From Dehalococcoidia bacterium (lineage in GTDB: Bacteria; Chloroflexota; Dehalococcoidia; Lucifugimonadales; UBA3495), in the NCBI GenBank assembly GCA_965216025.1, contig CBDCEX010000018.1, positions 7,808 to 71,807 of the forward strand: a stretch of 64,000 bases of DNA, read 5' to 3'. The position numbers were made by a program, and so were the translations under genes. The notes beneath the pieces were generated by a model. The model had not been told where the DNA came from. It ran no database searches and was given only the letters and a program-made list of their open reading frames with translations. This document shows, one piece after another, positions 16,804-31,968 of the stretch. The stretch's first letter is position 1; every line of letters begins with the position of its first letter.

Positions 16804-19800
16804 TGGTCTTCCCTATCCGGGACGATCCATGAAGGCATCGCCAGTAGTTGGCCATTCGTCAATCCAACCACTGTGTCGACGAGTTGCCGTGCGACGGCGC
16901 ACGAGTCTTCCCAATGGTCGAAGTACCCCAGGTATTCGGCCAAACGAGCCACCGTCATACCGAAGTGCCAAGAGAAGCCGGCGTCCGGTGGGAACGAGGC
17001 AATAAGAAATTCTTGCCAACGGTTGGGAAAATCATGCTTCAGCCAACACCACCGTTCTCTAGCTTCCCCAATGTCCGTCCAATGCTCGTACCACCCACGG
17101 TTAGACCGGTTTGCTTTTACCAGCCAACCAAAACTTTGAGTCCTGCCGACGATTTGTTTCACGGCAATGACTGCATCGTTACTGATCCGGAGCTGGTTGT
17201 CATCTAGCAAGTAGGGTCGTACAGCCTCCACCGCATCCCTGGCACGATCGGTTTCGGACCACCAGCACAGCCACGTGCATAGTGACTCGGACAACCTGTA
17301 TGGGACGTCGCCGCCCTCTCGTTGGATAAACTCACCGAGATCTTCTGGCGGGTACTTCAGACACTTTTCTCGGCTGATGCCATCTCTCATCGTCCAGCTG
17401 TGAGTATCCTCCTCGGAAGAACTGCGCATCGAACGTTCCACGTTCCCTAGTGAAAGCTTTGATGAGTACCGCGGCGTGAGCGCTACGACCTCTGCTGCTG
17501 GTTCGTATGATTGCCCGGCCCTTCGCTCGAGGAGTTCGATGGCGTCAGGGTCTATACAGGTGCTCACTAGAGCCCTAACATCCTGGTCGGTCAGGTTTCC
17601 GGTCGACACCAATTCTTTAAGCACCTGTTGGATGTCCGAGTATTGCTCGTTGTCCATCAGGAAGGTCAGGTAAGCGACTGCGAGGCCGGGGTCCAAGTGG
17701 AATATCCGGCTGCCGAGCTTGGAGGCTAGGTGGTTCGTCTCATCCCCGTCGGTGAACTCTCGCACTGCTCCAATTACGGGAGCCAGTCGGGCCCAGACCG
17801 TTCGCCTTGAATCCAAATGTTCACCGACGACCTCTATTACGTTCAGCGCGGTATCGAGGAGAATATCCTTGTGATAGCCGTAGGCGAGAAGGTTTTCGGA
17901 TGCTTGACGAAGATAGTCGAGCGCTCTCGCTGGCTGCTGGCGCCGAGCACAGATTGTGGCCAGCATTGCCAACGCGGCCGCCCGGTCACCGAACGGTTCG
18001 GTTGTGGTGGCAAATTCGTCGTCAAGCAGATCGCAAATCTTGATGGTCACTTCGTCGTCGACGGCAAGTGTGCCCTCGGCAATCCACTCGATCATGGGCC
18101 GTGAACCAGCAAATGGGTGGGATATTAACGATTGCACCTCCTCCCAGCTCAGCGTGGAACTACCACCGGTGGCACGCCGGGAGACCAGAAGATCCTCGGA
18201 GATTGTGCACAGTGCCCTCTTGAGTCCGTCAGCGCACTGGTAGTCGGCGAGTGGCGTTCGGAAAGGTGGAAAATCGAGGGAGTGGGTCGCGTCGTAGCCA
18301 GCGGTTACGGCGACTGTACCATTTAGGCGCCACTGTGCAACTATTTCCTCAGTGCCCAGCGCCAAGGATTCTAGACTAGATTTCAACCACGTTCGCATGT
18401 CTGCTGGCGCGGGCCATTGCTTGGCTTGGCCTGGGGACTGGAGTTCTTGGACCAACCAACAGAAGAACAGGTCGTGTACGTAATGCCCGACGTCCTGTTT
18501 ATACTCGTCGATGGCGAGCCTCCATTCGTCAACTGGAGGATCAGGGTTTGCTGGGACTGGCACGGCTGCATTCGGGTCTCGGAGTATCTGGTATACGGAA
18601 GGGTAAGGTGACACCATGGATTTGGTTTCCGCCTCGTCCAAGCGTATATCCTCGGAAATGCTGTCTACCGCGAGGTATCTTGACAGACACCGCTTGGATA
18701 AAGGTGCTGTTGGCCCCCTGAGCGCTTCGATCGCTGACTGTCTCCTGCCGGAATATCGCAGACCCCCTATCCAAGAGTCGACCAAAGAGGCCTGTGCAGT
18801 CTCCGAGGGAAGCTGGTTGATGAACTCTATGAACGACCTTGAGTCGTACCCGATCAAGCCTGCCAGTTCCGACAGGATCCCTGGCCGGTCCCTGTTTCCT
18901 TCCGATGTCTGAAAATTGTCCGATTCCCAATTGAGCCGACGACGTATTTGGTCGAAGCAATTCCCAGTATCGAATGAATTGCCTATTCCGTAGGAATAAA
19001 TCCCTAATGACGCAACTGCAGAATCGTTGAGTTCGGACAACCGCGTAATCTCTCGGGCGGCCAGTGCTTCTCGGCCTTCCATGGAAAGTTGCGCTTCGAA
19101 CATCCATCGCAAGGCATCGTACTGAATGGGAACCGTATGCTCCACGACGTCTGCCAAAATCCCGCGGTCTACGTATTTCGGGAAATCCTGGGCCTTGATG
19201 GACTCGTAAGCAGCCTCTTGCAGCATATTTGCAATTTCTGTCAATGAATCGCCGGCGGCAATGGCTTCGACCACCCACTGGCGGTCGGTGCCTTCCATGA
19301 GTGGTTTTGGGTCTCCCGCTTCGCGTTGCAGCAGCCACAAATTCGACCTGCGGAGGTAGGCCGGAGCCTTCTCTTCGAGCCACCTGATGGCGGCCTTCCG
19401 CAGTGCATCCCGACGCGACTCGAACTCGGGTTGTTCGAGGGCGAAGAGGAGTACGCTGTTGTGAAATGGCTGCCAGCCTATTCGGTTGTTCCATAACAGG
19501 TGCTGGACGGCGTCTACGCCGGCCGCACCGGTGGCCTGGTCGTACCCGGCTATTCGAAGGGTTTCGTGCAGGCCACTCAAGGGCCAATTAAACCTCGCGA
19601 TTGCAAGAAGGAACATCACGTCCCTAGCGTGTAGAGGGAGGTCGGCCCACAACGACCGGTAGTACTCCTCTACAGAGCTCGCTGGAGGTTCGGGAATCGC
19701 TTCAACTTCAGACGAGGTTAGATACTTACCTGCTCCCGCTATTCTTTCCACGATGTACCGAATCAGAAGGGGATGCCCCCCGGTGCGTTCGTGCAAGCTC

Positions 19801-21194
19801 TCAGCCAATTGAACGAGGTGCCATTCTTGGTTGCCCGCGAGCCACGTCGATGGCATCAGGTTATGGTGATGGTCGAGCCATTCCTTGATCGCTAACTTGT
19901 CCAGTGGTGGAAGCACAATCCAGCTGTTTCTCGGCGCGTACTTGATGAGGGATGCCGGGAGCTGTTTGTCCTGTACCGGTTGGGTGCCCACCACCAGGAC
20001 AATGCCTGGAGGTGCGGGTAGCAACTGGTCGAAGAGCTTGGTCAATTCATCCCGGGAGTCCTTGGCCCGCCAAACGTGATCGAGGCCGTCTACCACTATG
20101 ACCAAATGTTTACTCTCTGCTGACAGCCTTTCACCGATCTCTTCGAGCCAAATCCGAAGGTCCTGGGCAGGGTTTGGGTTCTGGGTGTCCAGCGCGGATA
20201 GATAAGGTCGCAGTTCAATTTGTAGGTCGGCCATGAGTGATTCGGCGATTCTGTGAGATTCCACTCTTTCCAAACGGTCCCGGCCGGGACCTAAAGAGTA
20301 ATGGTGTCTCACGACGTGGCAATCTGATTGGTGAAGTGAATTAACCAGATAACTGAGATACGTGCTTTTTCCTATACCTGGGCCTGCCGTCAAGACGATG
20401 ACGGGGTCGTTGCCGTCTATAACCCGCTGAAGTAAATCTTGATGACAATCTTTGTCCGCGAGTACGTAATCCGCCGGAACCTCCAGATCTTGGTTCAGCG
20501 GCGACAGTTGGGTCCATCCACAAGCGAGCCGGAGGTTCGAGATCCGGAGCTCGCCGTTTGGCGGGAGGTTTTCACACCTGATCCATGACCTAATTGCATC
20601 CATGAAACCCAGCCAGTTCGTCTCCGGCAGCCCCAGAGATTGGAAGTCTCGCTGCAGTCGTTCTTTCAGGTCGGTTAGTCCTTGCTCGGTGATCTCAAAG
20701 CAGAATCGCTCGATGAAATCATCCGCATCGTCCCCTAATATCGCCGTTATTTGATTCAAGACGTCGGGGCTGGTCTTGTCGACATCGATCCGTCCGGTGG
20801 CGGTAAGGAACAGGTCGTCACCAGCCTTGCGGTTGGAGAACAATCTAGGCTCGGTTCTGCCGTACTCCTGGTCAAGGGCCATGACAGAATCCCACCACTG
20901 TTGAATCAGCGTTGGGCTCTTTCCTTGGTTGCCACCGCGCAGCAGAGTCTTCCAAGTCAACGGATCGCCAGCCCGCAAGACGTCTGTGGAAAATTTCACC
21001 TGGGTCGCTTCCACAGTACCATCGATCCGGAGGACGACTACATCGTCCAGTTTACCGGCCTCTCGCGCCTCCAGCTTGATCCATTGATAAAGCGATGGAT
21101 TCTTCAGGAAGGTCAACATCGTTTTGGCGGCAACTAAATCTTGGTAATCGTCGCCGGACCTTCGCGTCGCTGTCCTGGTTCTACTCAGTGCCAT
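16800..21194 (-). CDS. STAND-class P-loop NTPase with N-terminal Cap4/DUF4297-like PD-(D/E)xK nuclease domain and long helical C-terminal region (Avs-like)
   Basis: N-terminus SGDDYQDLVA...KLDDVVVLRIDGTVEATQVKFS (a D...QxK pattern). Walker A LTAGPGIGKST (nt 20362-20391). Walker B HLVIVVDGLDHVW. About 1000 aa of helical-repeat-like sequence follows. Confidence 0.8.
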   Translation of the reverse strand: MALSRTRTATRRSGDDYQDLVAAKTMLTFLKNPSLYQWIKLEAREAGKLDDVVVLRIDGTVEATQVKFSTDVLRAGDPLTWKTLLRGGNQGKSPTLIQQWWDSVMALDQEYGRTEPRLFSNRKAGDDLFLTATGRIDVDKTSPDVLNQITAILGDDADDFIERFCFEITEQGLTDLKERLQRDFQSLGLPETNWLGFMDAIRSWIRCENLPPNGELRISNLRLACGWTQLSPLNQDLEVPADYVLADKDCHQDLLQRVIDGNDPVIVLTAGPGIGKSTYLSYLVNSLHQSDCHVVRHHYSLGPGRDRLERVESHRIAESLMADLQIELRPYLSALDTQNPNPAQDLRIWLEEIGERLSAESKHLVIVVDGLDHVWRAKDSRDELTKLFDQLLPAPPGIVLVVGTQPVQDKQLPASLIKYAPRNSWIVLPPLDKLAIKEWLDHHHNLMPSTWLAGNQEWHLVQLAESLHERTGGHPLLIRYIVERIAGAGKYLTSSEVEAIPEPPASSVEEYYRSLWADLPLHARDVMFLLAIARFNWPLSGLHETLRIAGYDQATGAAGVDAVQHLLWNNRIGWQPFHNSVLLFALEQPEFESRRDALRKAAIRWLEEKAPAYLRRSNLWLLQREAGDPKPLMEGTDRQWVVEAIAAGDSLTEIANMLQEAAYESIKAQDFPKYVDRGILADVVEHTVPIQYDALRWMFEAQLSMEGREALAAREITRLSELNDSAVASLGIYSYGIGNSFDTGNCFDQIRRRLNWESDNFQTSEGNRDRPGILSELAGLIGYDSRSFIEFINQLPSETAQASLVDSWIGGLRYSGRRQSAIEALRGPTAPLSKRCLSRYLAVDSISEDIRLDEAETKSMVSPYPSVYQILRDPNAAVPVPANPDPPVDEWRLAIDEYKQDVGHYVHDLFFCWLVQELQSPGQAKQWPAPADMRTWLKSSLESLALGTEEIVAQWRLNGTVAVTAGYDATHSLDFPPFRTPLADYQCADGLKRALCTISEDLLVSRRATGGSSTLSWEEVQSLISHPFAGSRPMIEWIAEGTLAVDDEVTIKICDLLDDEFATTTEPFGDRAAALAMLATICARRQQPARALDYLRQASENLLAYGYHKDILLDTALNVIEVVGEHLDSRRTVWARLAPVIGAVREFTDGDETNHLASKLGSRIFHLDPGLAVAYLTFLMDNEQYSDIQQVLKELVSTGNLTDQDVRALVSTCIDPDAIELLERRAGQSYEPAAEVVALTPRYSSKLSLGNVERSMRSSSEEDTHSWTMRDGISREKCLKYPPEDLGEFIQREGGDVPYRLSESLCTWLCWWSETDRARDAVEAVRPYLLDDNQLRISNDAVIAVKQIVGRTQSFGWLVKANRSNRGWYEHWTDIGEARERWCWLKHDFPNRWQEFLIASFPPDAGFSWHFGMTVARLAEYLGYFDHWEDSCAVARQLVDTVVGLTNGQLLAMPSWIVPDREDQ

Positions 21195-22288: not shown

Positions 22289-23221
22289 CTAGCCAGGTGC
22301 CAGCCGAAGCCGGCTGATCCGTTCTAGTATCCCGGTCAGCATTTCCCTGGTTACCAGCACCTCGGCAAGCTGAAACACCAGCCTCCTTGCGTGGCGTACC
22401 AGTCGCCCACCCGTCTTGATCAGCCTGGTCTGAAGACTGGTCAGAGTCCAGTGCTTCATATCCTCCGGCAACACCAGCCTTCTCATAAAGTTGCCCAGGT
22501 TGTAAGTCAGGACGAACAGCCATAGTCTCACCTGGTTGGCCACGAACTTGTGGCAGGAAAGCCGGGTCCAGTTCAGGGCGTACTTGCCCTCCTTGATCCA
22601 CTGCTCCGCCGTGCCACGGCCATTGTAAAAGCGGACTATTCCTTTGGGTGGATAGCTCAGGTTGGTCACGATGAAACCAACCCTGGGAAATAGCTCCCCC
22701 TGATGCCACTCTACTTTAGCCACCACTCGCCTGGGCAAGTGCCAACTCTGGGCCTGATAGGCAAAGTCATGGTAGGAGACGATAGGCTCCCGGGATGGCC
22801 ATTCGGTAGGACGCTCCAGCAAGGGTTGGATCTGCTCCTGAATTACCTGATTGGCGGGAAGCCGGATGGCGTACCCGATCTTTCCTTGTTCCAGATACTC
22901 GTATAGCTCCGGCTTGGCAAAAGCAGCGTCACCCCGGAACAGCAACCGCAGTCCTTTCTTCTGGTATCCTTTCACCACCGGCTCAAGGAGTTCCTGCCAG
23001 CCATCGGCACTATGCACGTTTCCGGGTCGTAGCGTCGCTCCTTCGCAATCCCCAAACTGGTTGAACAGAAAGAGGGGATGATAGCAGACACACTCGAAGT
23101 GCCCGTTGTAGGCGGCTCCTTCCTGCTGACCATGCACTGGACTCTCCGAACTGTCCATGTCCAGAATCACTCGCCGGTGTGGAGTGTGAGCCATGGCCAG
23201 CTCCACCCACTGGGGATTCAT
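22289..23221 (-). pseudogene. IS1380-family transposase, C-terminal part (separated from its N-terminal part by a MITE)
   Basis: VILDMDSSESPVHGQQEGAAYNGHFECVCYHPLF...FRGDAAFA...YNGRGTAEQWIKEGK is typical of IS1380 DDE transposases. Confidence 0.8.
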
Positions 23222-23232
23222 CAGGGCCAGCC

Positions 23233-23418
23233 CAGGGCAATCGCGTCTTAATCGCCCCCAGGTTTGGGACAGTGGCTCTTTGGGGTCTGACGAGTCCCGG
23301 AAGTCTTTCGATCTTTACGTGTTATAGTCAAAATAGCTGGGAAAGCATCGGAATATCTACCATTCGCTAGCCTTCTGTACCGAAGTTCGAAAAGGCAGTT
23401 TTAGACGCGATTGCCCTG
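23233..23418. mobile_element. 186-bp MITE with ISAs1-type terminal inverted repeats
   Basis: TIRs cagggcaatcgcgtctta and ttagacgcgattgccctg match the ISAs1 ends at 3643/4873. A perfect 10-bp target duplication agggccagcc lies at 23223-23232 and 23419-23428. No ORF inside. Confidence 0.8.
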
Positions 23419-23816
23419 AGGGCCAGCCCCTTTAGGTTGTCCTCTTGAGTCAGAGTCTCCGTCTCAAAACGGCTCATGGTGTTGGTTCTGGCGGCGTTGC
23501 GGTCTGAGCCTTGCCAGCCCACGACAACTCTCATGGCTGGGTCTTGGGAAAGACGTTCTGCATCGTTGGTATCATCGTAGCCGGCCAAGCGGCTGTAGAT
23601 GGACTGGCGGAGCAGAGGGACCAGGTGCTGGCGGATGTTGCGGCCGGTACGGCTTTCCTGGAGATAGTCGGAGGCTATGGGGGTAAGGTCCAGGGCGTCA
23701 TCCAGTTCTCGGAATGCCAGCAGTCCGGCGTCGGAGGTGATGGTGGCACCATGTAACTCCAGCCGGATTTGGGGATTGAATTGGAGCCGAAGAGAGGCCT
23801 TTTCGCGGTCACCCAT
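23419..23816 (-). pseudogene. IS1380-family transposase, N-terminal part
   Basis: LQFNPQIRLELHGATITSDAGLLAFRELDDALDL...RLAGYDDTNDAERL. It joins in frame to 22289..23221 when the MITE and one duplication copy are removed. Confidence 0.8.
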
Positions 23817-24209
23817 CGGGTGCCTCCAATGTCGGTACGCAAGTTATCTGAAATAGCCAACTTATTGCATGTATTATATCTGAAATACGGCTAAGAGATT
23901 CATGTAACGACTAGAAAAGCAAGAAAGTTGCCTATTTACCGCATCACTTGTTTGAGCCAAATGGGGAATACGGGCTTTAACTTCTTCCGGCAGCGCGGTG
24001 TTCATTATGGCTTCTTTCAATTTTGGAGATATTTCTCTTCGGAACCTACGCCGGGGGATAACTTCAGAAGCACCCTTGGCAGAAGACCAGCATTTTTCAG
24101 TCCATCCGACCTCCCGAAGAACCCCCGGTCGACCATGCCCGTCGTGACAAACAATGGGGTGCAAGTTCCAGTCCACAATATGGGCACCACATTTTTGAGG
24201 AGGTGTCCC

Positions 24210-25541
24210 ATGACGGACAACCCGAAGGAATATCCCTATCCCATCGGTCCGTTGGCGGAGTCGTTCCCACCGTTGTCCCCGGCGCGGCATGCCGCCCTGG
24301 TGGTCCGGATTGCCCAGCATAGTTTCCGTCCTGCCGTCATCGTCTGGAGGGAGGAGATCATTTTCGGAGTGGCACTCCTGAAGGCCTACAAAGAGGCTGG
24401 CGTGGAGCCCCGGTTCGAACAATTGGCCGACGATGCGGACCCGACCGAGGCTCTTGCCGCAGCGGCTATTCCTTTCCTGGAAATGGACAACAACGCGCGG
24501 GGGCGGGCAGCCTGGATGGCCTCAGAGTGGTCCACCCGGGGGAGGCCCCGGGATGAGGACCAAAATTCTGCAAATTTGCAGAATAAAACCCGGGCCGCCA
24601 TGGCCGAACGGTTCGGAGTAAGCGTCAGGCTCATCAACTATTTCGCCCAGGTCCTGTCAGAGAACAGCAAGGCCGTGCCGGCGTTGCAGCAGGCGGTGAG
24701 GGAGTGGAAGATCAAGGGGACGGACGCCGCCCGGGTGATATCCCGCCCGGCCGTGGTGCAGGAGAGGGCGGTGGAGCTGGTGATGAGCAAGGAAGTCCGG
24801 ACCGTCAGCCGGGCGGTGGAGCGGGTTGAGCGGGAGATGGCCGAGGCGGTGGAGGCGGCGGTCCTGGCGGACATGCTGGCGCAGCCATTGGATGAGACCA
24901 TGACCCTGCACGTGGCGCAGATCGCCGACATACTCCGGCTGGTCCCGGCCAACACCGTCGACGCCATCATCACCCATCCTCCTCAGGCCGAGGACAAGCT
25001 GTTCATGTACTCCGACCTGGCGGCTCTCGCAGCCCACGCCCTGAAGCCCTCCGGCTTCATGGCAGTGCTGGGTAACGGCATGCTTCTGCCCCGGATGCTG
25101 GCGCATCTGGAGCACGAGGGGATCAGGTGGATTATGGAGCAGGACGTCCTCTCCCAGGGGCCGCCGGATCGTTCCGGGCGCCCGTACTTCCTGGGCCTCC
25201 GCCGCAAGCCCCTGCTCGTCTACGGCAAGCCCGCCTTCCAGCCCGCCGGTGGGGACGACCTGATCACAGTTCCCCCGCCGGAGGAGTTGCCCGCAGGCCT
25301 CGACCGGAACGAGACCACCATGGACTTGATCGTCAAGAAGTTGTGCCGGTCCGGACAGACGGTCTGCGACCCGATAATGCTGGATCGGGCCGGCACGGCG
25401 CTGGGGGCGAGGAAGCAGGGCTGCACCTTCATCGGCGCCACGGAGCATCAGTCCTCTCGGGACCGCATCCGGAAGCGGATGATGGAAGCAGAAGTAGGCT
25501 GCGGTGGACAATCCGAAACCGGTTCACCCAGCGAAGGATGA
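24210..25541 (+). CDS. ParB-like N-terminal domain / beta-class DNA methyltransferase-like protein with degenerate catalytic motifs
   Basis: ATG at 24210 is preceded by GAGGAGG. The ParB-like segment is SPARHAALVVRIAQHSFRPAVIVW. Motif IV position reads DAIITHPPQ (expected DPPY). Motif I position reads DPIMLDRAGTALGARKQGCTFIGATEH (expected DPFxGSGTT...GRxxIGxE). Confidence 0.65.
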   Translation: MTDNPKEYPYPIGPLAESFPPLSPARHAALVVRIAQHSFRPAVIVWREEIIFGVALLKAYKEAGVEPRFEQLADDADPTEALAAAAIPFLEMDNNARGRAAWMASEWSTRGRPRDEDQNSANLQNKTRAAMAERFGVSVRLINYFAQVLSENSKAVPALQQAVREWKIKGTDAARVISRPAVVQERAVELVMSKEVRTVSRAVERVEREMAEAVEAAVLADMLAQPLDETMTLHVAQIADILRLVPANTVDAIITHPPQAEDKLFMYSDLAALAAHALKPSGFMAVLGNGMLLPRMLAHLEHEGIRWIMEQDVLSQGPPDRSGRPYFLGLRRKPLLVYGKPAFQPAGGDDLITVPPPEELPAGLDRNETTMDLIVKKLCRSGQTVCDPIMLDRAGTALGARKQGCTFIGATEHQSSRDRIRKRMMEAEVGCGGQSETGSPSEG

Positions 25542-25658
25542 GGGATATCGGGTCAGGCTGACTGGCAGAGATGATCTGGAATAGAGGTAGTTGAAGTCTT
25601 ACAATCACCCAACTACATGGTTACCTTGGGTTGAGGGTTACTAGTTGAGGGTTACTAA

Positions 25659-25931
25659 TTGATTAGAAACCAGAAGCGAGTTGCGCTGTCTAGAAAGACT
25701 AAAAGGAAACTACTTGAACCGGGTTACTGGGGTTCTCTGGAAGATGAGGAACTGGAGAGCATCCAAAGGGCCTTGGAAAACAATCCCAAGCTATCATTTG
25801 CTTGGGGCTTTCAACCGGTACAGAAAAGCAGAGCTCCCGATGCTATTCGGAGAGTGGCCATGTGGGGAGACCCTAAAGATAGGGAAATCAATACCAAGGT
25901 GATTCGTAGTAGCCTGATGCGGGTGTCATGA
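25659..25931 (+). CDS. hypothetical protein
   Basis: ORF only, in a lower-GC region. Preceded by a tandem repeat ttgagggttacta x2 (25631-25657). Confidence 0.3.
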   Translation: MIRNQKRVALSRKTKRKLLEPGYWGSLEDEELESIQRALENNPKLSFAWGFQPVQKSRAPDAIRRVAMWGDPKDREINTKVIRSSLMRVS

Positions 25932-26086
25932 AGAAGATTCCGATGGCTATGTTAGGATGGTGTTGGGATTACGGCAAATTGCTGGAGACTAAGTCAAAGC
26001 ATAGGAGCACGTCTCGGAGAGCCACTACTGGACTTCCACGGATGGCCCTTGCATTCTGAACAGAACTTTGAACAAAAGAGGATCGT

Positions 26087-26401
26087 ATGCCCACATTTGA
26101 CCAGGTGTCACTCCAAGAAGCCATGCTAAAGACCGCTACGGGTAAGACAGCTCAGACCACCCAAAAATATCTGGGCTACATCGGGCAGCTGACCGAGGGC
26201 CAGGCAGGGAGACTCCAACCAGAAGAGGATGAGAGCGTGACCAGCGTTCGGCGGCGGCTCGGTGTTGCAGCTAAGTTATCGGGCAAAGATATTACCATTA
26301 AACGGCAAGGGAACGAAGTGTACTTTTGGGTTCAAGAGGAGCCGAGGCCCCGGGGACAGCGGGGACAGCGTAGAGGATCCCAAAGTGTTCCGGAAGCTTA
26401 G
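26087..26401 (+). CDS. hypothetical protein
   Basis: ORF with an AAGAGGA RBS-like sequence upstream. No motif recognised. Confidence 0.35.
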   Translation: MPTFDQVSLQEAMLKTATGKTAQTTQKYLGYIGQLTEGQAGRLQPEEDESVTSVRRRLGVAAKLSGKDITIKRQGNEVYFWVQEEPRPRGQRGQRRGSQSVPEA

Positions 26402-26506
26402 GTAGTACATTGCAATTATTGGAAGAGTAACGAAAACGAGGGTTTCCCCGAGCGGGCTTTATATTGCAAAACGTTTTCCTACTCCTCGTTGGTCATGGTG
26501 CTGCTC

Positions 26507-26953
26507 CTAGTCAGTCCCCATCCCCAAGAGGCATTGGGCAGCGAAGACCGCCCCGGCTATAGCGAGGGCAAGGGGATAGTAGAGGTACACTGACGGGGAC
26601 CGCAGGCACTTCATCAATATGCCGATGGAGAAATCCACTGGAACAATTTGATAGACGTCTCCTAGCCCGTAAGTACCACTCCGTAGCTTCTCTAGCATGC
26701 ACTCATACGAGCCTCTGAATCGTCGCTCAAGGGATAAATAGTAGACGTCCAGTAGGAAGAACAGGGACAGCGGCACCAGGGCAATCAACGTGTACCACGG
26801 GACTCCGGTTCTAGCGGCTAAGAACAGCACGGCGGATAACGCCGTAATGCTCCACAATTTACAGGAACGGCTGTTCTCCGCCATGCGCTGGATAACTCCC
26901 TGCAACATCTCCAGATGGGACTGGACGGCGGATGCCCCGGCGGCAAAAGTCAC
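26507..26953 (-). CDS. small 3-TM membrane protein (SLATT/PycTM-like candidate effector)
   Basis: N-terminal amphipathic helix, then TM segments LWSITALSAVLFLAA, WYTLIALVPLSLFFLLDVYYL and VYLYYPLALAIAGAVFAAQCLL. The start overlaps the upstream stop by 4 nt. Confidence 0.65.
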   Translation of the reverse strand: MTFAAGASAVQSHLEMLQGVIQRMAENSRSCKLWSITALSAVLFLAARTGVPWYTLIALVPLSLFFLLDVYYLSLERRFRGSYECMLEKLRSGTYGLGDVYQIVPVDFSIGILMKCLRSPSVYLYYPLALAIAGAVFAAQCLLGMGTD

Positions 26954-27684
26954 AACAGGCCAACTTCGCCAAGTTCTCTTTGTAAGATCGACCGCCAGTT
27001 AGCTAACGGTTCCGTTATTAGGCTGGAGTAATCAGACGGCATCTCCACCTTGTCCTCCTTTAGCACACACACCAACTTCGGATCCCTGTCGAGTACCCGG
27101 CCCATCTCTATCATTGCATTGGGACGGGGGCGGAACACGCCCGTCGTTAGCTCCTCGTCGGCGGTAAGCACCACAATATAATAGTCCGCCTCGTTAATGG
27201 TGCTGCTCACCTTGTCGTTAACGAAGCGACCAGAATTGGGGAGATCAGCCGCCTTGTAAGCATCCACGCCGTGCTCAAAGCACCAGATCCGGATATCCTC
27301 CACGACTTGAGGCACGCGCCCCTCGCTACTACCGTGGATCACCATTATCATAGGTCGGGACTGCCGTATCTGATTGCCGCTGGGTTCGGCCTCATTGGCA
27401 ACTGATGAGTTCCATGCGTCTAGAGCCGTCCTGCCATCCTCGGTTAGGTCGAAGGCATAAATACCCTCGGACGACCAGGTGTTAGTGACGTCTGAGAACC
27501 CTCTGCTAGATCGAATCCAACCCATGTAGGACAACGTTATAGCGTCGGTGTGCTCCTGACCATTGAAGTCCAGCGTTCTAGACATCAATGTCATCAGGTC
27601 GGGGATAGATTCTCCCGCTTCCCGCGCAGCCAACTTACCAAGCAGTTCCATCAAGCGTCGTTCCTGTTCCTTACCCATCGACAT
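26950..27684 (-). CDS. protein with unknown N-terminal domain and C-terminal Cap12/PycTIR-type TIR-like domain
   Basis: The C-terminal half has IMVIHGSSEG, YYIVVLTADEEL, RPNAMIEMG and VCVLKEDKVEMPSDYS. This matches the COG4271 TIR-like nucleotide-binding family pattern (vFIVHGhd...LLTpDD...aRqNVifElG). Confidence 0.7.
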   Translation of the reverse strand: MSMGKEQERRLMELLGKLAAREAGESIPDLMTLMSRTLDFNGQEHTDAITLSYMGWIRSSRGFSDVTNTWSSEGIYAFDLTEDGRTALDAWNSSVANEAEPSGNQIRQSRPMIMVIHGSSEGRVPQVVEDIRIWCFEHGVDAYKAADLPNSGRFVNDKVSSTINEADYYIVVLTADEELTTGVFRPRPNAMIEMGRVLDRDPKLVCVLKEDKVEMPSDYSSLITEPLANWRSILQRELGEVGLL

Positions 27685-27720
27685 ATGACGGCCTCCAGTT
27701 TTCCCCGCAGCATCGGTATT

Positions 27721-28245
27721 CTACTGACGGCGATTCTTTATGGCATCTTCGACCCATCCCTCAAGGTGGTCCTTGATATAGCCGTACACGTCCTTGCTGT
27801 CCGTGTAGGGAGAGTCGTAAGCAACCACACGTTGGTTTAGAGTCTGACCGTTCTGTACTTGAACGCTCGCGAAGGGATTAGTGCCCTTGCTGGAAGATTT
27901 GCTGTCTTGGTTCAGGAGCCTGTAAATATAGATGCCCAATAGCCCCTTCTTGTCGTTCCATGCTTTCCTAATCTCATAGTCTACCCACTTTCGGCCCGCC
28001 GTCTGCGAGCCAATTAGGACTATTACGCAAGATCGGGTGCTCATCTGCTCATTGATCCATTTCTGGATAGCGGCATCGCCGCCACGCTTAACTTCCTCCC
28101 ACGCATTGCTCGAAACGGGCTCGTCGTGCTCGGTAACGCCGATGTTGCGGACTTGCCCGGCTCTCCAAGCATCATTGTCAAAGTGGAAGCTGTAGAATGT
28201 CCGTCTCTTGGGGTGATTGGTAGTCAATTCATTCTCCTTGTTCAC
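27721..28245 (-). CDS. thsB: ThsB-type TIR domain protein (Thoeris ThsB / DUF1863 family)
   Basis: RRTFYSFHFDNDAWRAGQVRN, SCVIVLIGSQTAGRKWVDYEIRKA and KGTNPF align by eye with Bacillus ThsB along most of its length, including the conserved Glu. Confidence 0.85.
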   Translation of the reverse strand: MNKENELTTNHPKRRTFYSFHFDNDAWRAGQVRNIGVTEHDEPVSSNAWEEVKRGGDAAIQKWINEQMSTRSCVIVLIGSQTAGRKWVDYEIRKAWNDKKGLLGIYIYRLLNQDSKSSSKGTNPFASVQVQNGQTLNQRVVAYDSPYTDSKDVYGYIKDHLEGWVEDAIKNRRQ

Positions 28246-28838
28246 TATTCAAGACTTGACAGGTCTTGACGTGTGTTTTCGTAGGGGAGTGCCGCTCCTT
28301 CCCGCTGCAGTGCCCTCCGGACGGTGTTGGGGGAACACTCGAAGGTCTCGGCGATACGCCGCAGGCTAGCCCCTGCTTCCCGCATCTTCCGGACCACCTC
28401 CAGCTGCCCCTGATTGAATTTCCTCGGTGGGCCCAAGGTCTTGCCCTGCTGCCGGGCCCGCTCAAGCCCCTCCCTGGTGCGCCGCCTGATGGACGCCAGC
28501 TCCTGGTCGGCGACCCAGGCGGCAAACATCATAAGAACCTGGCCGAAGAAGGCCTCTGGGTTGCCCTCGTCGGCCTCCAGGTACTTCGTCCACTGGGCCT
28601 CAGTCTCGGCCAGGGAGCGAACCTTCACGCCCCGGTCACGCAGTTCACCGATGGACCGGATGGTGTCAGGCCAGCGCCGGCCGATGCGGGCGATGGCCAC
28701 CACCGCCAGGGTGTCGCCGCCGGCCAGGCGGGCGTTCAGGCGGTGCCAGCCCCGGCGCTCCTGGGAAGCGGGGTCCATGCCCGGGGCCCCCTCCTGGAGC
28801 TGCCGGCTGGTGCGGATGTAACCGTAAATCTGTGCCAT
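28245..28838 (-). CDS. small serine recombinase (resolvase/invertase family)
   Basis: N-terminal YGYIRTSRQLQ (catalytic Ser region), GDTLAVVAIARIGR, and C-terminal HTH ASLRRIAETFECSPNTVRRAL. Its stop overlaps the thsB start by 1 nt. Confidence 0.8.
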   Translation of the reverse strand: MAQIYGYIRTSRQLQEGAPGMDPASQERRGWHRLNARLAGGDTLAVVAIARIGRRWPDTIRSIGELRDRGVKVRSLAETEAQWTKYLEADEGNPEAFFGQVLMMFAAWVADQELASIRRRTREGLERARQQGKTLGPPRKFNQGQLEVVRKMREAGASLRRIAETFECSPNTVRRALQREGAALPYENTRQDLSSLE

Positions 28839-29085
28839 GCCGGGAGTATGCGTTTATTGCACGGCTCCCGCAATGGGGAAATGCCAGTGTTTGGGGGGTG
28901 TGCAATACTCCCCTTTTAGGGAACACTGGAAGGACAGGACAGTCCCGACAGTCCGCTGCACCGGCGCGGGTGGGCATCGCATCGCTGGCTCCGTCCGAGT
29001 CCTGGATCCACACCCTCAGCGCCCCCTACCGAAGTCGCGCAAATGGTGGACGAGATTGTGCTGCGGGTGAGGGACTGCTGGGCGG

Positions 29086-29358
29086 CGCAGGCGGAAAGGT
29101 GCGGGACCTGACCGACGGCTGCGTGGACTACCCCCCCTCGAGGCCATCGGCCTCAAGACCACCGCCGAGCAGTGCTACCAGATGCTGCGGGCCGGCGGCA
29201 CCGCCACCATCATCGACATAATTCCCGAAGGCACCAAAATCGAGTGGCTGAAGCTGGATGAACTGGTATCGCAGCACATGAAGGTGGAGCAGATGAAAGA
29301 AGCCCCCGCCGACATGAAGGCCGGGAACGTGGCGCGGAGCATGATTATGTTTGAGTAG
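29086..29358 (+). pseudogene. remnant of a zinc-type (MDR) alcohol dehydrogenase C-terminus
   Basis: The frame ending at 29358 reads KVRDLTDGCVDY..EAIGLKTTAEQCYQMLRAGGTATIID...ADMKAGNVARSMIMFE, with an internal deletion and no N-terminal part. Confidence 0.45.
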
Positions 29359-29468
29359 GGGGAGTCCTTCCGGCCGAAAGGCCGGTTAGGATTCGTCATT
29401 GAGCGGGCGGACGTTCCAAACGAGCGGTTCGTCCGTTTCTGCGTCTAGGGTTCAGTTGGAGGGGTTGT

Positions 29469-30059
29469 TCACAGGTTGATGAGCGGACCCTGACCGATCA
29501 CAGCTAGAATCCGGTTCTTTAATCTCTCTCGCAAATCTTGATGAGTTTCCCAGTCTATGTGGCTGTAATGGGAAGTGTCGAAGTGCAAGGTTTTCATTGA
29601 CTTCTTGGCGCACATGAATATGACGGGGATGTTGAGCCCGTGGGCGAATCCAGCTTCGTAGTAGACGCTGCCCCTAGCCCCGTCAGTTCCATGGGTAAAG
29701 TCGGCAACCAAAAATCTGGATTTCCGAATTTCGGCTATGATTTCATCTTCGATCCTATTGATGTGATCCTTCCGGTTGAGTATTAGGGGTTTGAATCCAG
29801 CGTCTTTGATCCCTAGCTCTATCCCATGCTCGTAAACTTCAGTCATGCTGTCGTGGAACCACATCGCTACGAAGGCTTGGGTTAAGTCGGTATTGGCTGC
29901 TTGGTCGGCGATATGTGCATGCCCCGCTACTGTGACGTACACGTTCCCTTGGCCGCCCGACATGAAATCACCGGTTATCCAACCCCTTTCTCTTAGAACC
30001 TGTTTACGATCTCTGAAATATGATAAGTTGAGACGATTACCGGAGGGAGGGGTAATCAT
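29469..30059 (-). pseudogene. C-terminal half of a wH-like / nucleoside 2-deoxyribosyltransferase(TIR)-fold protein split by IS5
   Basis: AFVAMWFHDSM...IIAEIRKSRFLVADFTHG...SVYYEAGFAHGLNIPVIFMC fits the NDT/TIR-like Rossmannoid pattern. The apparent N-terminus (MITPPSG) is read out of the IS5 end. Confidence 0.6.
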
Positions 30060-30861
30060 GTCTCATTCCTATCCCAGCGACATCAGCCGGGAGCAATTTG
30101 CCCGGATTCTGCCGGATTTGGAGTCGGCCCGACGCCGGACCAAGCCCCGCACCGTGGACTTGTACGACGTTTTCTGCGGGGTGCTCTATCTTTTAAAAAG
30201 CGGGTGCCAGTGGCGGATGCTCCCTGCGGACTTCCCCAATTGGGGCACCTGCTACAAGTATTTCCAGCAATGGAGCCAGCGGCCTGACCCAGAGCAAGAG
30301 TCTATTCTGGAGCAGGTCTTAAAAAAAATTGGTTGGCGCGGCCCGGAGAAGCAATGGTCGGAAAGAGCAGACCAGCTTCTGCATCGTGGACTCCCAGAGC
30401 GTCAAGAACACGGACAGCGCCGAGCAGAAGGGCTATGACGCGGGCAAGAAGGTGTCGGGAATCAAGCGTCACATCGCGGTGGATACTCAGGGATTGCCCC
30501 ATGCGATCCACGTGACTACCGCGAACGTCACCGACCGGGCTGGGGCTTTGGCGATGTTTGACCAGCGGCGGGACGGCCTCAGCTTGGTGCAGAACGTGCT
30601 GGTGGACGGGGGTACACTGGGGATCCCTTTGCCGCTGGGGTGCAGAGCCTGCTGGGAGCGTCGGTGGAGGTGGTGAAACGCAATGAGATGCACACCTTCG
30701 TAGTGCTGCCGAAGCGATGGGTGGTGGAGCGGTCTTTTGCCTGGCTGGAAAAGTGCCGCCGACTCTGGAAGAACTGCGAAAGAAAGCTAAATACCAGCCT
30801 GCAAATGGTGGTGCTTGCCTTCGCGGCGCTAATCCTGAAGAGATTGCAAACAGGCTCTTAG
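30058..30861 (+). mobile_element. IS5-family element; transposase in three frames (A8 slippery run plus a second frameshift)
   Basis: MSHSYPSDISREQFARILPDL...CQWRMLP | VDSQSVKNTDSAEQKGYDAGKKVSGIKRHIAVDTQGLPHAI | [28 protein letters not shown]. The first shift is at the A8 run (30321-30328). The second is about 30610-30620, where GGYTG reads GGTLG. Confidence 0.8.
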
Positions 30862-31293
30862 GTACTCTAGGAAGTAATCGACTTCGTCCCATTTGGTCGA
30901 CTCACTCCAGGCAAAGGCACCATATTCACCTTCATCGATCCAAACTCGATTTGCGACGGTTTGTGATTGTCGGGCGATGAATCGAAGGAGTCGGGTCGCT
31001 CGCTCGTGTACTTGGAGGGGCTGTCTCGCTTTGACTGACTCTACCACAGCGTCAGTTATTGAGGGCATATGTACTCCCTGCGATCTTTGGTCAACCAACC
31101 AAGTAGTGAGCTTGGCCCTCTGCTCTACCGATAACTCATTAAGTGAGACGTCCATTGCAAGGTGGTAACCCCCACCGGTACGAGGAGAGTCATAACTGCC
31201 CCACGTGATGCTGGATCGGGATTCGATCAATTGGGTTGTCGCCCCTTCCAAAGGGGTGCCCCAAATGGGGCAAGTTTGTAAATTAGATCTCAT
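30829..31293 (-). pseudogene. N-terminal half of the gene split by IS5
   Basis: The ORF ends ...WDEVDYFLEYL, followed by residues read from the IS5 end. It has the same strand and order as 29469..30059. Confidence 0.5.
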
Positions 31294-31611
31294 CTAAAAA
31301 CCCCCGATTGTTCTCGTCGGTGTATAGGTATGTACGAGAAAGCTGATATTCGCTCACCTTACCCACAAGCTGCAGGCCTCCACCAGTTTGGCCAGCCCCC
31401 CGGCCGCAGGCCCGTGGATTGAGCGGCTTCAGAATTCCCACGGGGGTTGGATGGAATCGCCCCATTCCCCGATGAGCATGGGGTCCAGCCTGTTTATCCC
31501 GGGCAGGCGGTCGAAGTATTCCGGGGTGTCGTCGAACCGGCACCCTGGGGGGCCGAAGGGGAGCTCCCCGTCCTGGGAGAGGGCGTCCAGGTTATTGCTG
31601 CTGGCCATTGC

Positions 31612-31968
31612 TCAGAGCCGCTCCGCTTCTACCGGCACCAGTAGTTGTCCCACTGGGTCCACTGCCAGCAGGGCGTCCTCCAGCGTGACCACTCCCAGCA
31701 GGCTGGGTTCATTTTCCTCTGCGAATATCACCTGTGTTGCGAAGGTCTGGTCCTCCAGCCTGACCACTGTCCAGCCTATGTCCACTGGGACCGAGCTTCC
31801 GTCGGCCAGCCGGGACCGGGCTGAGCGTCTCACTGGCACTCCCAGCCTCTGCAGTAGCGCTCTGGGCACGGCCGTGAAGGTTGACCCGGTGTCCACAGTC
31901 ACCTCGAGGTCCTCGAACTGCCTGCCCTGCTGGTCTCCGACACCTATGGTTACAACCAGTTTTCCCAC
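31612..31968 (-). CDS. retropepsin-like (clan AA) aspartic protease
   Basis: VTVDTGSTFTAVPRALLQRLGV contains the DTG(S/T) active-site motif in a ~120-aa protein. Confidence 0.7.
   Translation of the reverse strand: MGKLVVTIGVGDQQGRQFEDLEVTVDTGSTFTAVPRALLQRLGVPVRRSARSRLADGSSVPVDIGWTVVRLEDQTFATQVIFAEENEPSLLGVVTLEDALLAVDPVGQLLVPVEAERL

What the first reader, a model, noticed from the sequence alone, without database searches (positions are those of the whole stretch)
26507..28838. ThsB-type TIR gene without any canonical ThsA: candidate non-canonical Thoeris-like operon (recombinase, ThsB, unknown-domain/Cap12-PycTIR-like TIR, 3-TM protein)
Four minus-strand genes are tightly packed: a 1-nt overlap at 28245, a 36-nt gap, and a 4-nt overlap at 26950-26953. 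Gene 27721..28245 aligns by eye with characterised Bacillus ThsB over most of its length (FYSFHFDNDAWRAGQVRN; VIVLIGSQTAGRKWVDYEIRKA with the conserved Glu; GTNPF). In known Thoeris systems ThsB makes a nucleotide signal that activates ThsA (SIR2-SLOG or TM-Macro). Neither ThsA type is present in this window. Instead, the next gene encodes a ~110-aa N-terminal domain of unknown function, possibly wH-like. This is fused to a TIR-like domain of the Cap12/PycTIR effector family (IMVIHGSS, YYIVVLTADE, RPNAMIEMG, with the Glu of the xElG motif retained). The last gene encodes a 3-TM protein with an N-terminal amphipathic helix, reminiscent of SLATT/PycTM membrane effectors. The cassette has visibly lower GC than its flanks and begins with a small serine recombinase. 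It also abuts a decayed alcohol-dehydrogenase remnant, consistent with a mobile defence cassette. Hypothesis: a TIR signal generator paired with a split effector, namely a TIR NADase/sensor plus a membrane-disrupting protein.
Basis: partly seen in the sequence, partly recalled or inferred. Interest (0 to 1): 0.8.

Follow-up and report, generated by a model that had tools for sequence, protein, structure and literature searches.

The report
Type V Thoeris with extra TIR
This is an anti-phage cassette whose ThsB sensor and small membrane protein match the recently described type V Thoeris system, so the "missing ThsA" is explained; the one new element is an extra, lineage-specific TIR protein between them that travels with the membrane effector even where ThsB is absent.

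Summary
The ThsB without a ThsA is no longer a puzzle. The 148-aa 3-TM protein is a homologue of ThsF, the validated effector of type V Thoeris in B. thuringiensis DAR 81934 (hhalign 98.9%, E 2e-17). The pair also matches the PADLOC candidate system PDC-M50 (A and B). In 80 metagenomic ThsF loci, 65 have an adjacent ThsB and none has the middle gene.

The middle 244-aa gene has a winged-helix-like N-domain of no recognised family, fused to a Cap12/PycTIR-class TIR with the catalytic Glu. It is a divergent PDC-S35-like protein, and its close family was found only in Dehalococcoidia. There it is linked to ThsF in three gene orders. Four of those loci have no ThsB and carry a small zinc-ribbon gene instead. 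It also occurs alone in two loci.

The best reading is a type V Thoeris core plus an accessory TIR protein that acts through ThsF. That protein is most likely a second TIR input; a NADase co-effector and an independent neighbour remain open.

The recombinase carries a 27-aa in-frame deletion and is not conserved with the cassette. No alcohol-dehydrogenase remnant was found.

This is a new variant of a known kind, of moderate interest.

The parts
27721..28245 (-). thsB: ThsB-type TIR protein (174 aa from GTG; probably 168 aa from the TTG at 28227). It is the inferred phage sensor and producer of the ADPR-derived signal. The catalytic Glu is E91.
   Evidence: Pfam PF08937 scores 6.7e-25. PADLOC ThsB scores 6.5e-71 and PDC-M50B 6.8e-59. 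It is 37% identical to B. cereus MSX-D12 ThsB with the Glu aligned. It is 48% identical to a TIR labelled 'DUF2270 - Type V' in Table S1 of Yirmiya et al..
27397..27684 (-). N-terminal domain (aa 1-96) of the 244-aa protein. Its topology is helix-helix-helix-strand-strand-helix, which is winged-helix-like. It belongs to no recognised family. It is the inferred sensor or oligomerisation module.
   Evidence: AF2 models give pLDDT of about 74. There is no Pfam hit even at E<=10. Foldseek found nothing significant in PDB or BFVD; the weak hits (E>=0.47) are mostly MarR, PadR and DtxR winged-helix proteins. Invariant residues include W56, W70, W91 and the GQEH-DA-TL motif.
26950..27351 (-). C-terminal Cap12/PycTIR-class TIR domain (aa 112-244) of the 244-aa protein, with its stop codon. 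The candidate catalytic Glu is E193 in RPRPNAMIEMG.
   Evidence: PF10137 scores 41.1 bits against a cut-off of 24.7. PADLOC PDC-S35 scores 3.9e-9. The top Foldseek hits are the TIR domain of SfSTING 7un8 (E 1e-6), TIR-STING 9lmq and SPARTA TIR-APAZ. PycTIR 8jsj is the closest solved sequence, with the Glu aligned. E193, R187 and N189 are invariant in 23 homologues.
26507..26953 (-). thsF-like gene: a 148-aa membrane protein with a conserved N-terminal helix (HLxxxQGVIQRMAENSRSCK) and three hydrophobic helices. It is the inferred signal-gated membrane effector.
   Evidence: PADLOC PDC-M50A scores 5.9e-24. It is homologous to the gene directly downstream of the validated type V ThsB of B. thuringiensis DAR 81934: blastp 30% identity with E 1e-14, and hhalign 98.9% with E 2.4e-17. 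That gene also hits PDC-M50A at 1.8e-48. Three hydrophobic segments were found. The profile family has 4535 representatives.
26437..26450 (-). Terminator-like hairpin with a T-run, about 60 nt after the thsF stop codon. It is the probable end of the operon.
   Evidence: Consensus scan only; sequence shown.
28245..28838 (-). Neighbouring small serine recombinase. This copy has an in-frame 27-aa deletion in the catalytic domain. It is not a conserved part of the defence unit.
   Evidence: The Resolvase Pfam match covers only profile positions 45-144 here, against 1-144 in the 224-aa version on contig L028. The alignment shows the deletion. No homologue was found next to the cassette in L001-L007. 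GC is 0.67, against 0.52-0.56 for the cassette.

Best explanation
The core of the locus is a type V Thoeris system. On phage infection the ThsB TIR protein converts NAD+ into an ADP-ribose-derived signal. By analogy with the validated type V system and with the closest ThsB relatives, which sit in type I systems, that signal is probably 3'cADPR. The signal activates the small 3-TM protein ThsF, which oligomerises in the membrane and stops growth or kills the cell before the phage completes.

A third gene lies between the two and overlaps thsF by 4 nt, which may couple their translation. It encodes a winged-helix-like N-domain fused to a Cap12/PycTIR-class TIR domain with an intact catalytic Glu.

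This protein is functionally tied to ThsF rather than to ThsB. Most likely it is a second TIR input: its N-domain senses a different infection cue, and its TIR domain then makes a product that also triggers ThsF. It may consume NAD+ at the same time.

Shown here: the homology of all three proteins, the gene linkage patterns and the catalytic motifs. Inferred: the identity of the signal, the direction of signalling for the third protein, and the membrane mechanism. The adjacent recombinase is a damaged passenger and not part of the system.
For: Core system:
- The 148-aa protein is homologous to validated ThsF.
- Both proteins hit PADLOC PDC-M50A, and ThsB hits PDC-M50B.
- ThsB falls in a TIR cluster that Table S1 of the preprint labels 'DUF2270 - Type V'.
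- Its nearest plasmid relatives (51-53% identity) sit in type I SIR2-ThsA Thoeris systems.
- ThsB-ThsF adjacency holds in 65 of 80 metagenomic loci, with ThsB upstream on the same strand in 62. It also holds on Firmicutes, Vibrio and E. coli plasmids.

Linkage of the third gene to ThsF:
- Order ThsB-244-ThsF in the window, in L001-L005 and in L028-L033.
- Order ThsB-ThsF-244 in L007, where the 244-aa protein comes from a different sublineage (56% identity, against 73-75% for its neighbours). This suggests a separate juxtaposition.
- 244-ThsF-ZnR in L023 and L024, and ZnR-244-ThsF in L026 and L027, with no ThsB within 4-5 kb. In those loci it is the only TIR available to feed ThsF.
- A close ThsF (76% identity) in L034 has two ThsB genes and no 244-aa gene. 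The TIR slot therefore varies while ThsF stays constant.
- Multi-TIR Thoeris operons are documented.
- The catalytic Glu is invariant.
Against: - Every characterised PF10137-class TIR (Cap12/TIR-STING, PycTIR) is an NAD+-depleting effector, not a signal maker. The best structural and sequence matches are to those proteins, and Table S1 files such TIRs under CBASS context.
- The 244-aa family also occurs without ThsF, next to DUF1156 genes (L022; L025 is cut by a contig end 107 nt upstream). A pure signal producer would be useless there.
- It matches the PADLOC single-gene candidate PDC-S35.
- The ThsF in L024 is frameshifted and the one in L026 is truncated, so some ThsB-less loci are decaying.
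- Neither the 148-aa protein nor validated ThsF reaches any Pfam PF10028 score. Type V membership therefore rests on homology to one validated protein from a preprint.
- No experiment was done. The signal identity is extrapolated, and one validated type V system did not respond to 3'cADPR.
Confidence: 0.5

Rival explanations
1. Dual-effector Thoeris. ThsB is the only signal producer. Its product activates two outputs in parallel: ThsF in the membrane, and the 244-aa protein. In the latter, the N-domain binds the signal and drives TIR oligomerisation and NAD+ depletion.
For: - The TIR domain belongs to the effector class: PF10137, with closest matches to TIR-STING and PycTIR.
- The architecture of a small N-domain plus a TIR domain mirrors sensor-TIR effectors.
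- The preprint reports Thoeris operons with two effectors that answer one signal (ThsH plus ThsI).
- It also reports islands that mix ThsF with the TIR-SLOG effector ThsJ, and both type V and type IX ThsBs make 3'cADPR.
- The gene sits inside the operon, between ThsB and ThsF.
Against: - Four loci keep the 244-aa gene with ThsF but have no ThsB.
- The N-domain matches no known nucleotide-sensor fold such as SLOG, STING, SAVED, Macro or CARF. It looks winged-helix-like.
- The gene is absent from 80 of 80 ThsB-ThsF loci outside Dehalococcoidia.
Confidence: 0.25
2. Independent neighbour. The 244-aa protein is a self-contained single-gene abortive-infection protein (PDC-S35-like, sensor plus NADase). 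It merely shares a defence-island slot and a transcript with a standard two-gene type V Thoeris system.
For: - It matches PADLOC PDC-S35 models, more strongly for the stand-alone homologues (E down to 2e-19).
- Stand-alone copies lie beside DUF1156 genes in L022 and L025.
- ThsB-ThsF works as a two-gene unit elsewhere.
- The window region is an IS-rich defence island that also holds a NACHT STAND ATPase.
Against: - ThsF adjacency recurs in three gene orders and in at least two sublineages.
- The stop and start codons of the 244-aa gene and thsF overlap.
- The 244-ThsF pair persists after ThsB is lost or replaced by ZnR. This is more linkage than island co-location usually gives.
Confidence: 0.17
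3. Regulator. The winged-helix-like N-domain binds DNA, and the TIR-like domain is a ligand sensor. The 244-aa protein would then control transcription of thsB and thsF, as wHTH regulators do in other defence islands.
For: The weak structural matches of the N-domain are almost all to MarR, PadR and DtxR-type DNA-binding domains. The gene is located within the operon.
Against: - None of those matches is significant (best E 0.47).
- The catalytic Glu and the surrounding motif are invariant, which points to an enzyme.
- No regulator of this architecture is known to me (from memory, not searched).
Confidence: 0.05

Closest known systems
Type V Thoeris (ThsB + ThsF, labelled 'DUF2270'; Yirmiya et al., bioRxiv 10.64898/2025.12.03.692087, Dec 2025)
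   Same: It has a ThsB-type TIR with the catalytic Glu. It has a roughly 140-150-aa 3-TM effector homologous to the validated B. thuringiensis ThsF. ThsB lies upstream in the same operon. The setting is a defence island.
   Different: An extra TIR-domain gene sits between thsB and thsF. The lineage is Dehalococcoidia. The signal and the defence phenotype are untested here. There is no PF10028 hit by hmmscan, but the same is true of validated ThsF.
PADLOC candidate systems PDC-M50 (A+B) and PDC-S35 (PADLOC-DB v2.0.0)
   Same: The 148-aa protein hits PDC-M50A at 5.9e-24. ThsB hits PDC-M50B at 6.8e-59. The 244-aa protein hits PDC-S35 at 3.9e-9.
   Different: PADLOC lists these as two unrelated candidates, one a two-gene system and one a single gene. 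(That naming convention is from my memory.) Here they are interleaved in one operon, and the S35-like gene follows the M50A gene across loci.
Type IX Thoeris (ThsB + ThsJ, a TIR-SLOG effector)
   Same: A Thoeris system in which a second TIR-domain protein accompanies ThsB. The preprint reports ThsJ together with ThsF in one island.
   Different: No SLOG domain was detected. The N-domain is about 96 aa and winged-helix-like. I could not retrieve a ThsJ sequence to compare the TIR domains (one search returned another type V locus).
Cap12 (TIR-STING) of CBASS and PycTIR of Pycsar
   Same: The TIR subclass is the same (PF10137). The catalytic Glu motif is aligned. These are the best structural and sequence matches.
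   Different: There is no STING, SAVED or cNMP-binding sensor domain. There is no cyclase partner in the operon. The partners are ThsB and ThsF.
Type I Thoeris (ThsB + SIR2-SLOG ThsA)
   Same: ThsB is 37% identical to B. cereus MSX-D12 ThsB. It is 51-53% identical to plasmid ThsBs that sit beside SIR2 ThsA genes.
   Different: No ThsA is present in the 64-kb window. The effector is ThsF.

Membership tests
Type V Thoeris | TIR-domain ThsB gene with an intact catalytic Glu | tested here: met
   PF08937 scores 6.7e-25. E91 aligns with the Glu of BcThsB 'YEI'. It is 48% identical to a Table S1 TIR labelled type V.
Type V Thoeris | Operonic effector homologous to experimentally validated ThsF | tested here: met
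   The gene downstream of the 100%-identical B. thuringiensis DAR 81934 ThsB (L020:3773-4198) was compared with the 148-aa protein. Blastp gives E 1e-14. Hhalign gives 98.9% and E 2.4e-17 over 123 columns.
Type V Thoeris | Effector with three membrane-spanning helices | tested here: met
   Kyte-Doolittle analysis finds hydrophobic segments centred near residues 38-44, 58-67 and 129-139. This is a crude method, not a dedicated TM predictor.
Type V Thoeris | Effector annotated as Pfam PF10028 (DUF2270) | tested here: inconclusive
   The 148-aa protein and 33 close relatives give no PF10028 hit, even at E<=10. Five of 141 distant relatives hit weakly, the best at 9e-4. Validated ThsF itself gives no PF10028 hit. 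The label must come from a more sensitive method.
Type V Thoeris | Two-gene unit with thsB directly adjacent to thsF | tested here: not met
   In the window a 735-nt gene separates them. They are adjacent in the related locus L007 and in 65 of 80 metagenomic loci.
Type V Thoeris | Phage-triggered 3'cADPR production, 3'cADPR-dependent ThsF toxicity, and phage defence | not testable with these tools
   This needs expression, LC-MS and plaque assays.
Type I / type II Thoeris | ThsA effector (SIR2-SLOG, or TM-Macro) next to ThsB | tested here: not met
   Two SIR2 ThsA proteins and one Macro protein were searched against the whole window by tblastn. There was no credible hit; the best was E 0.008 over 40 aa, inside a transposase region. 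The flanking genes show no SIR2 or Macro Pfam domains. Only selected ORFs were scanned with Pfam.
Type VII Thoeris (SLATT effector) | Effector with a SLATT domain | tested here: not met
   No SLATT family appears among the Pfam hits of the 148-aa protein or its relatives at E<=10.
Type IX Thoeris | Effector that combines TIR and SLOG domains | tested here: not met
   The 244-aa protein has only PF10137 on residues 114-224. The N-domain has no Pfam hit, and its weak structural matches are winged-helix proteins, not SLOG.
CAP12/PycTIR TIR family (PF10137) | Domain match above Pfam's gathering score, with a conserved catalytic Glu | tested here: met
   The match scores 41.1 bits against 24.7. E193 aligns with the Glu of PycTIR 'HLEFG' and is invariant. 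The fold matches the TIR domain of TIR-STING.
CBASS Cap12 / Pycsar PycTIR effectors (as systems) | Fused cyclic-nucleotide sensor (STING, SAVED or cNMP-binding) and a cognate cyclase in the operon | tested here: not met
   No such domain is present in the protein. The window cassette contains no cyclase.
PADLOC PDC-M50 | Adjacent genes matching the PDC-M50A and PDC-M50B models | tested here: met
   A scores 5.9e-24 and B scores 6.8e-59. The PADLOC system-level rules (maximum gene spacing) were not run.

The most novel reading that the evidence does not exclude
In Dehalococcoidia, a Cap12/PycTIR-class TIR protein with a new N-terminal sensor domain acts as the signal generator for the ThsF membrane effector. 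This TIR class is so far known only as an NAD+-depleting effector. ZnR-244-ThsF modules that lack any ThsB would then form a new Thoeris-like type. The window's operon would be a hybrid with two unrelated TIR inputs feeding one output. A stronger version is that the protein both depletes NAD+ and releases the cADPR isomer that opens ThsF, joining two kill mechanisms in one step.
Probability: 0.3. Interest if true: 0.65.

Novelty: new variant of a known kind. Interest (0 to 1): 0.4.

Why it matters
The main puzzle, a ThsB with no ThsA, is already solved by the type V Thoeris description. Taken alone, the finding extends a known system to Dehalococcoidia, a poorly studied and hard-to-culture lineage.

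What remains useful is the third gene. It gives a natural test of whether 'effector-class' TIR domains can serve as signal producers, or whether Thoeris systems can add a second, TIR-based output with a new sensor domain.

The ThsB-less ZnR-244-ThsF modules are a compact three-gene unit that could be synthesised and tested directly. The result would refine the rules that defence-annotation tools use to decide which TIR genes are sensors and which are effectors.

Tried and rejected
- **SLATT/PycTM resemblance of the 148-aa protein:** no SLATT Pfam hit. Replaced by direct homology to ThsF.
- **Pfam DUF2270 as a membership criterion:** dropped, because validated ThsF also fails it.
- **Getting ThsF from plasmid relatives of the B. 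thuringiensis ThsB:** the first two loci (L012, L013) had no adjacent small membrane gene. The C. botulinum, L. salivarius, Vibrio and E. coli plasmids did.
- **Retrieving a type IX ThsJ for comparison:** the look-up returned another type V locus.
- **Alcohol-dehydrogenase remnant:** six ORFs around 28.7-29.4 kb and 26.0-26.4 kb gave no ADH domain.
- **Recombinase as part of the system:** rejected. It is not conserved in L001-L007, its GC differs, and this copy is internally deleted.
- **Fold of the N-domain:** Foldseek against PDB and BFVD gave nothing significant. HMM search against PDB sequences gave only the TIR part.
- **Phage origin of the 244-aa gene:** no relative in IMG/VR.
- **Literature search for PDC-M50:** no paper in the held library.
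- **Table S1 of the preprint:** searched for the 244-aa TIR motifs and none found, but the stored file is truncated.
Full report
**1. The observation**

The four minus-strand ORFs exist at the stated coordinates.
- The ThsB stop is followed by a 36-nt spacer that carries GGAGG, and then by the ATG of the 244-aa gene.
- The 244-aa gene's stop overlaps the GTG start of the 148-aa gene (GTGA).
- A terminator-like hairpin follows the last gene.
- The 1-nt recombinase/ThsB overlap depends on a GTG start. A TTG start 18 nt downstream, preceded by AAGGAG, is likelier and is the one called on sister contigs.

- ThsB_TIR scores E 6.7e-25.
- CAP12-PCTIR_TIR scores 41.1 bits against a cut-off of 24.7, on residues 114-224 of the 244-aa protein.
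- Resolvase plus HTH_7 match the first gene.
- The 148-aa protein has no Pfam family.

The ThsB Glu (E91) aligns with that of B. cereus MSX-D12 ThsB. E193 of the 244-aa protein aligns with the Glu of PycTIR. No ThsA-like gene is detectable in the window.

Three side claims fare less well.
- No alcohol-dehydrogenase remnant was found.
- GC is 0.52-0.56 for the three genes, against 0.586 for the window, while the recombinase is 0.67.
- The recombinase is a 27-aa in-frame deletion variant of a 224-aa protein found on near-identical contigs. The deletion removes part of the catalytic domain.

**2. The 148-aa protein is ThsF**

PADLOC-DB already holds a two-gene candidate system, PDC-M50. Its A model matches the 148-aa protein (5.9e-24) and its B model matches this ThsB (6.8e-59).

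A December 2025 preprint from the Sorek laboratory (10.64898/2025.12.03.692087) defines type V Thoeris as ThsB plus ThsF, a 3-TM 'DUF2270' effector. It validates the system in B. thuringiensis DAR 81934 and identifies 3'cADPR as the signal.

I recovered that validated ThsB at 100% identity. I then read the gene directly downstream of it, a 141-aa ORF. The ORF's position matches the effector's IMG identifier, which is the ThsB identifier plus one.
- It is homologous to the window's 148-aa protein: blastp 30% identity over 132 residues with E 1e-14, and hhalign 98.9% with E 2.4e-17 against the family profile.
- It hits the same PDC-M50A models.
- Neither protein reaches a PF10028 score by hmmscan; only 5 of 141 distant relatives do so weakly. 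The 'DUF2270' label is therefore not a usable criterion. Homology to the validated protein is.

The family is large, with 4535 representative clusters at E<=1e-3.

**3. ThsB-ThsF is the widespread unit**

- Of 80 metagenomic loci fetched with the ThsF profile, 65 have an adjacent ThsB, and in 62 it lies directly upstream on the same strand.
- Nine more are cut by a contig end.
- None carries a relative of the 244-aa gene.
- The same pairing occurs on plasmids of Ligilactobacillus, Clostridium botulinum, Vibrio and E. coli.
- It also occurs inside type I restriction-modification loci.
- This ThsB belongs to a TIR cluster that the preprint's Table S1 labels 'DUF2270 - Type V' and 'HIT hydrolase - Type XI'. 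Its nearest plasmid relatives sit in type I SIR2-ThsA systems.

**4. The 244-aa protein**

Its close family comprises 73 clusters of about 245-aa proteins. In the species-representative genome set it occurs only in Dehalococcoidia MAGs.

The C-terminal domain is an effector-class TIR.
- The top Foldseek hits are the TIR domain of SfSTING (E 1e-6), TIR-STING and SPARTA TIR-APAZ.
- PycTIR is the closest solved sequence.

The N-terminal 96 residues fold as helix-helix-helix-strand-strand-helix.
- They have no Pfam or significant structural match.
- The weak matches are nearly all winged-helix proteins.
- PADLOC's single-gene candidate PDC-S35 matches the protein weakly (3.9e-9), and matches its stand-alone relatives better (2e-19).

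**5. Linkage pattern of the 244-aa gene**

| Architecture | Loci |
|---|---|
| ThsB-244-ThsF | window, L001-L005, and six near-identical contigs from five metagenome assemblies (L028-L033) |
| ThsB-ThsF-244 | L007 (the 244-aa protein is 56% identical to the window's; its neighbours are 73-75%) |
| 244-ThsF-ZnR | L023, L024 |
| ZnR-244-ThsF | L026, L027 |
| 244 alone beside DUF1156 | L022, L025 |
| 244 beside a transposase fragment | L006 |

- The identity pattern in L007 suggests a separate juxtaposition.
- ZnR is a 95-105-aa CxxC...CxxC protein. No ThsB lies within 4-5 kb in the four ZnR loci.
- The ThsF copy in L024 is frameshifted and the one in L026 is truncated.
- Conversely, a ThsF that is 76% identical (L034) has two ThsB genes and no 244-aa gene.

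Across these loci the TIR partners vary far more than ThsF does, and the 244-aa gene follows ThsF, not ThsB.

**6. Mechanism**

The core is best read as type V Thoeris: ThsB senses infection and makes an ADPR-derived signal, and that signal gates oligomeric ThsF in the membrane.

For the 244-aa protein, the ThsB-less loci favour a role upstream of ThsF, as a second sensor-TIR input. This would be analogous to the multiple thsB genes of many Thoeris loci.

Its TIR subclass and its stand-alone occurrences instead favour an NADase. That could be a signal-activated co-effector, which has precedents in ThsH plus ThsI operons and in ThsF plus ThsJ islands. It could also be an independent PDC-S35-like system.

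The readings are not exclusive. From memory, bacterial TIR NADases commonly release cADPR isomers. Sequence analysis cannot separate these readings. My estimates are 0.85 for the core, about 0.4 for the input role, 0.25 for the co-effector, 0.17 for the independent neighbour and 0.05 for a regulator.

**7. Novelty and verdict**

Two of the three genes are a described system: a preprint type, and before that a PADLOC candidate.

The three-gene Dehalococcoidia variant and the ZnR-244-ThsF modules are not described in the literature I could search. The preprint's tables are stored only in part.

I rate this a new variant of a known kind, with interest 0.4.

**8. Context**

- The cassette lies in an IS-rich defence island.
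- The island holds a 1464-aa NACHT/AAA_16 STAND ATPase and several transposases.
- It also holds a 319-aa gene with a nucleoside-deoxyribosyltransferase/TIR-like C-domain, which an IS4/5 insertion splits in this window.
- The block 22507-31737 recurs at 99-99.9% identity in several assemblies, with different outer flanks.

Noticed in passing
window 29469-30002 and 30856-31293 (-), with an insertion at about 30003-30855: A 319-aa gene that is intact on sister contig L028 (445-1404) is split here by an IS4/5-family element of about 850 bp (DUF4096 and DDE_Tnp_1 ORFs). The intact protein has a 150-aa N-domain of no recognised family. Its C-domain is nucleoside 2-deoxyribosyltransferase/TIR-like (PADLOC 'Effector TIR' 1.3e-8; Pfam Nuc_deoxyrib_tr 0.009). 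It may be another defence gene next to the Thoeris cassette.
   Followed up: partly
window 28754-28765, within the recombinase gene 28245-28838 (-): The serine recombinase lacks 27 codons (QELQLLGAGVPLDNIFRDVGISGTTGT) compared with the 224-aa version on L028. The two blastn segments overlap by about 12 nt at the junction, which suggests a deletion between short direct repeats. The enzyme is probably inactive in this genome.
   Followed up: yes
window 28249-28269: A 9-bp perfect inverted repeat (TCAAGACTT-GAC-AGGTCTTGA) sits exactly at the recombinase/thsB junction, where GC drops from 0.67 to 0.52. It could be a terminator for the recombinase gene or a recombination site.
   Followed up: no
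L023:6228-6539, L024:6205-6522, L026:3717-4004, L027:3717-4004: A small (95-105 aa) zinc-ribbon protein (CxxC...CxxC) accompanies the 244-aa gene and ThsF in loci that lack ThsB. It lies either upstream, overlapping the 244-aa start by 4 nt, or downstream of ThsF. The L024, L026 and L027 copies match one another at 25-49% identity. The L023 copy is grouped with them by position and cysteine motif only. No defence-family match was found.
   Followed up: partly
L004:5306-5959 (Dehalococcoidia chromosome OZ253464.1): The ThsB homologue appears to be interrupted by an in-frame stop near 5714-5716, giving two HMM hits on consecutive ORFs. The adjacent 244-aa and ThsF genes are intact. This could be a pseudogene or an assembly error.
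   Followed up: no
L017 (Clostridium botulinum p6CSt, NZ_CP063819.1 37691-43035): A TIR-ThsF (type V-like) pair on a phage-like plasmid is flanked on both sides by small serine recombinase genes. This echoes the recombinase next to the window's cassette. Such modules may ride on invertible or mobile cassettes.
   Followed up: no
L016 (Ligilactobacillus salivarius pIBB3154_2): A 13-kb plasmid carries ThsF (141 aa), a ThsB 54% identical to the window's, and on the opposite strand a second TIR protein related to the B. thuringiensis type V ThsB. This is a compact two-TIR type V locus beside a SinI restriction-modification system.
   Followed up: partly
window 16800-21194 (-): A 1464-aa ORF carries AAA_16, NACHT and NPHP3_N ATPase domains. 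It is a STAND NTPase and a possible Avs-like defence gene, about 5 kb from the cassette and separated from it by a DDE transposase (22289-23221).
   Followed up: no
window 24210-25541 (+), 25659-25931 (+), 26087-26401 (+): Three convergently oriented genes (443, 90 and 104 aa) are conserved with the cassette on all near-identical contigs. The 443-aa protein has only faint methyltransferase and PADLOC mad2 similarity. The other two match nothing. Their relation to the cassette is unknown.
   Followed up: partly
L020:3773-4198 (validated ThsF) and relatives: Validated ThsF and three relatives give weak hits to Pfam 8xMP, the 'octameric membrane protein family' PF24838 (E 0.001-0.012), rather than to DUF2270. 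This may reflect a shared oligomeric membrane-ring architecture.
   Followed up: no
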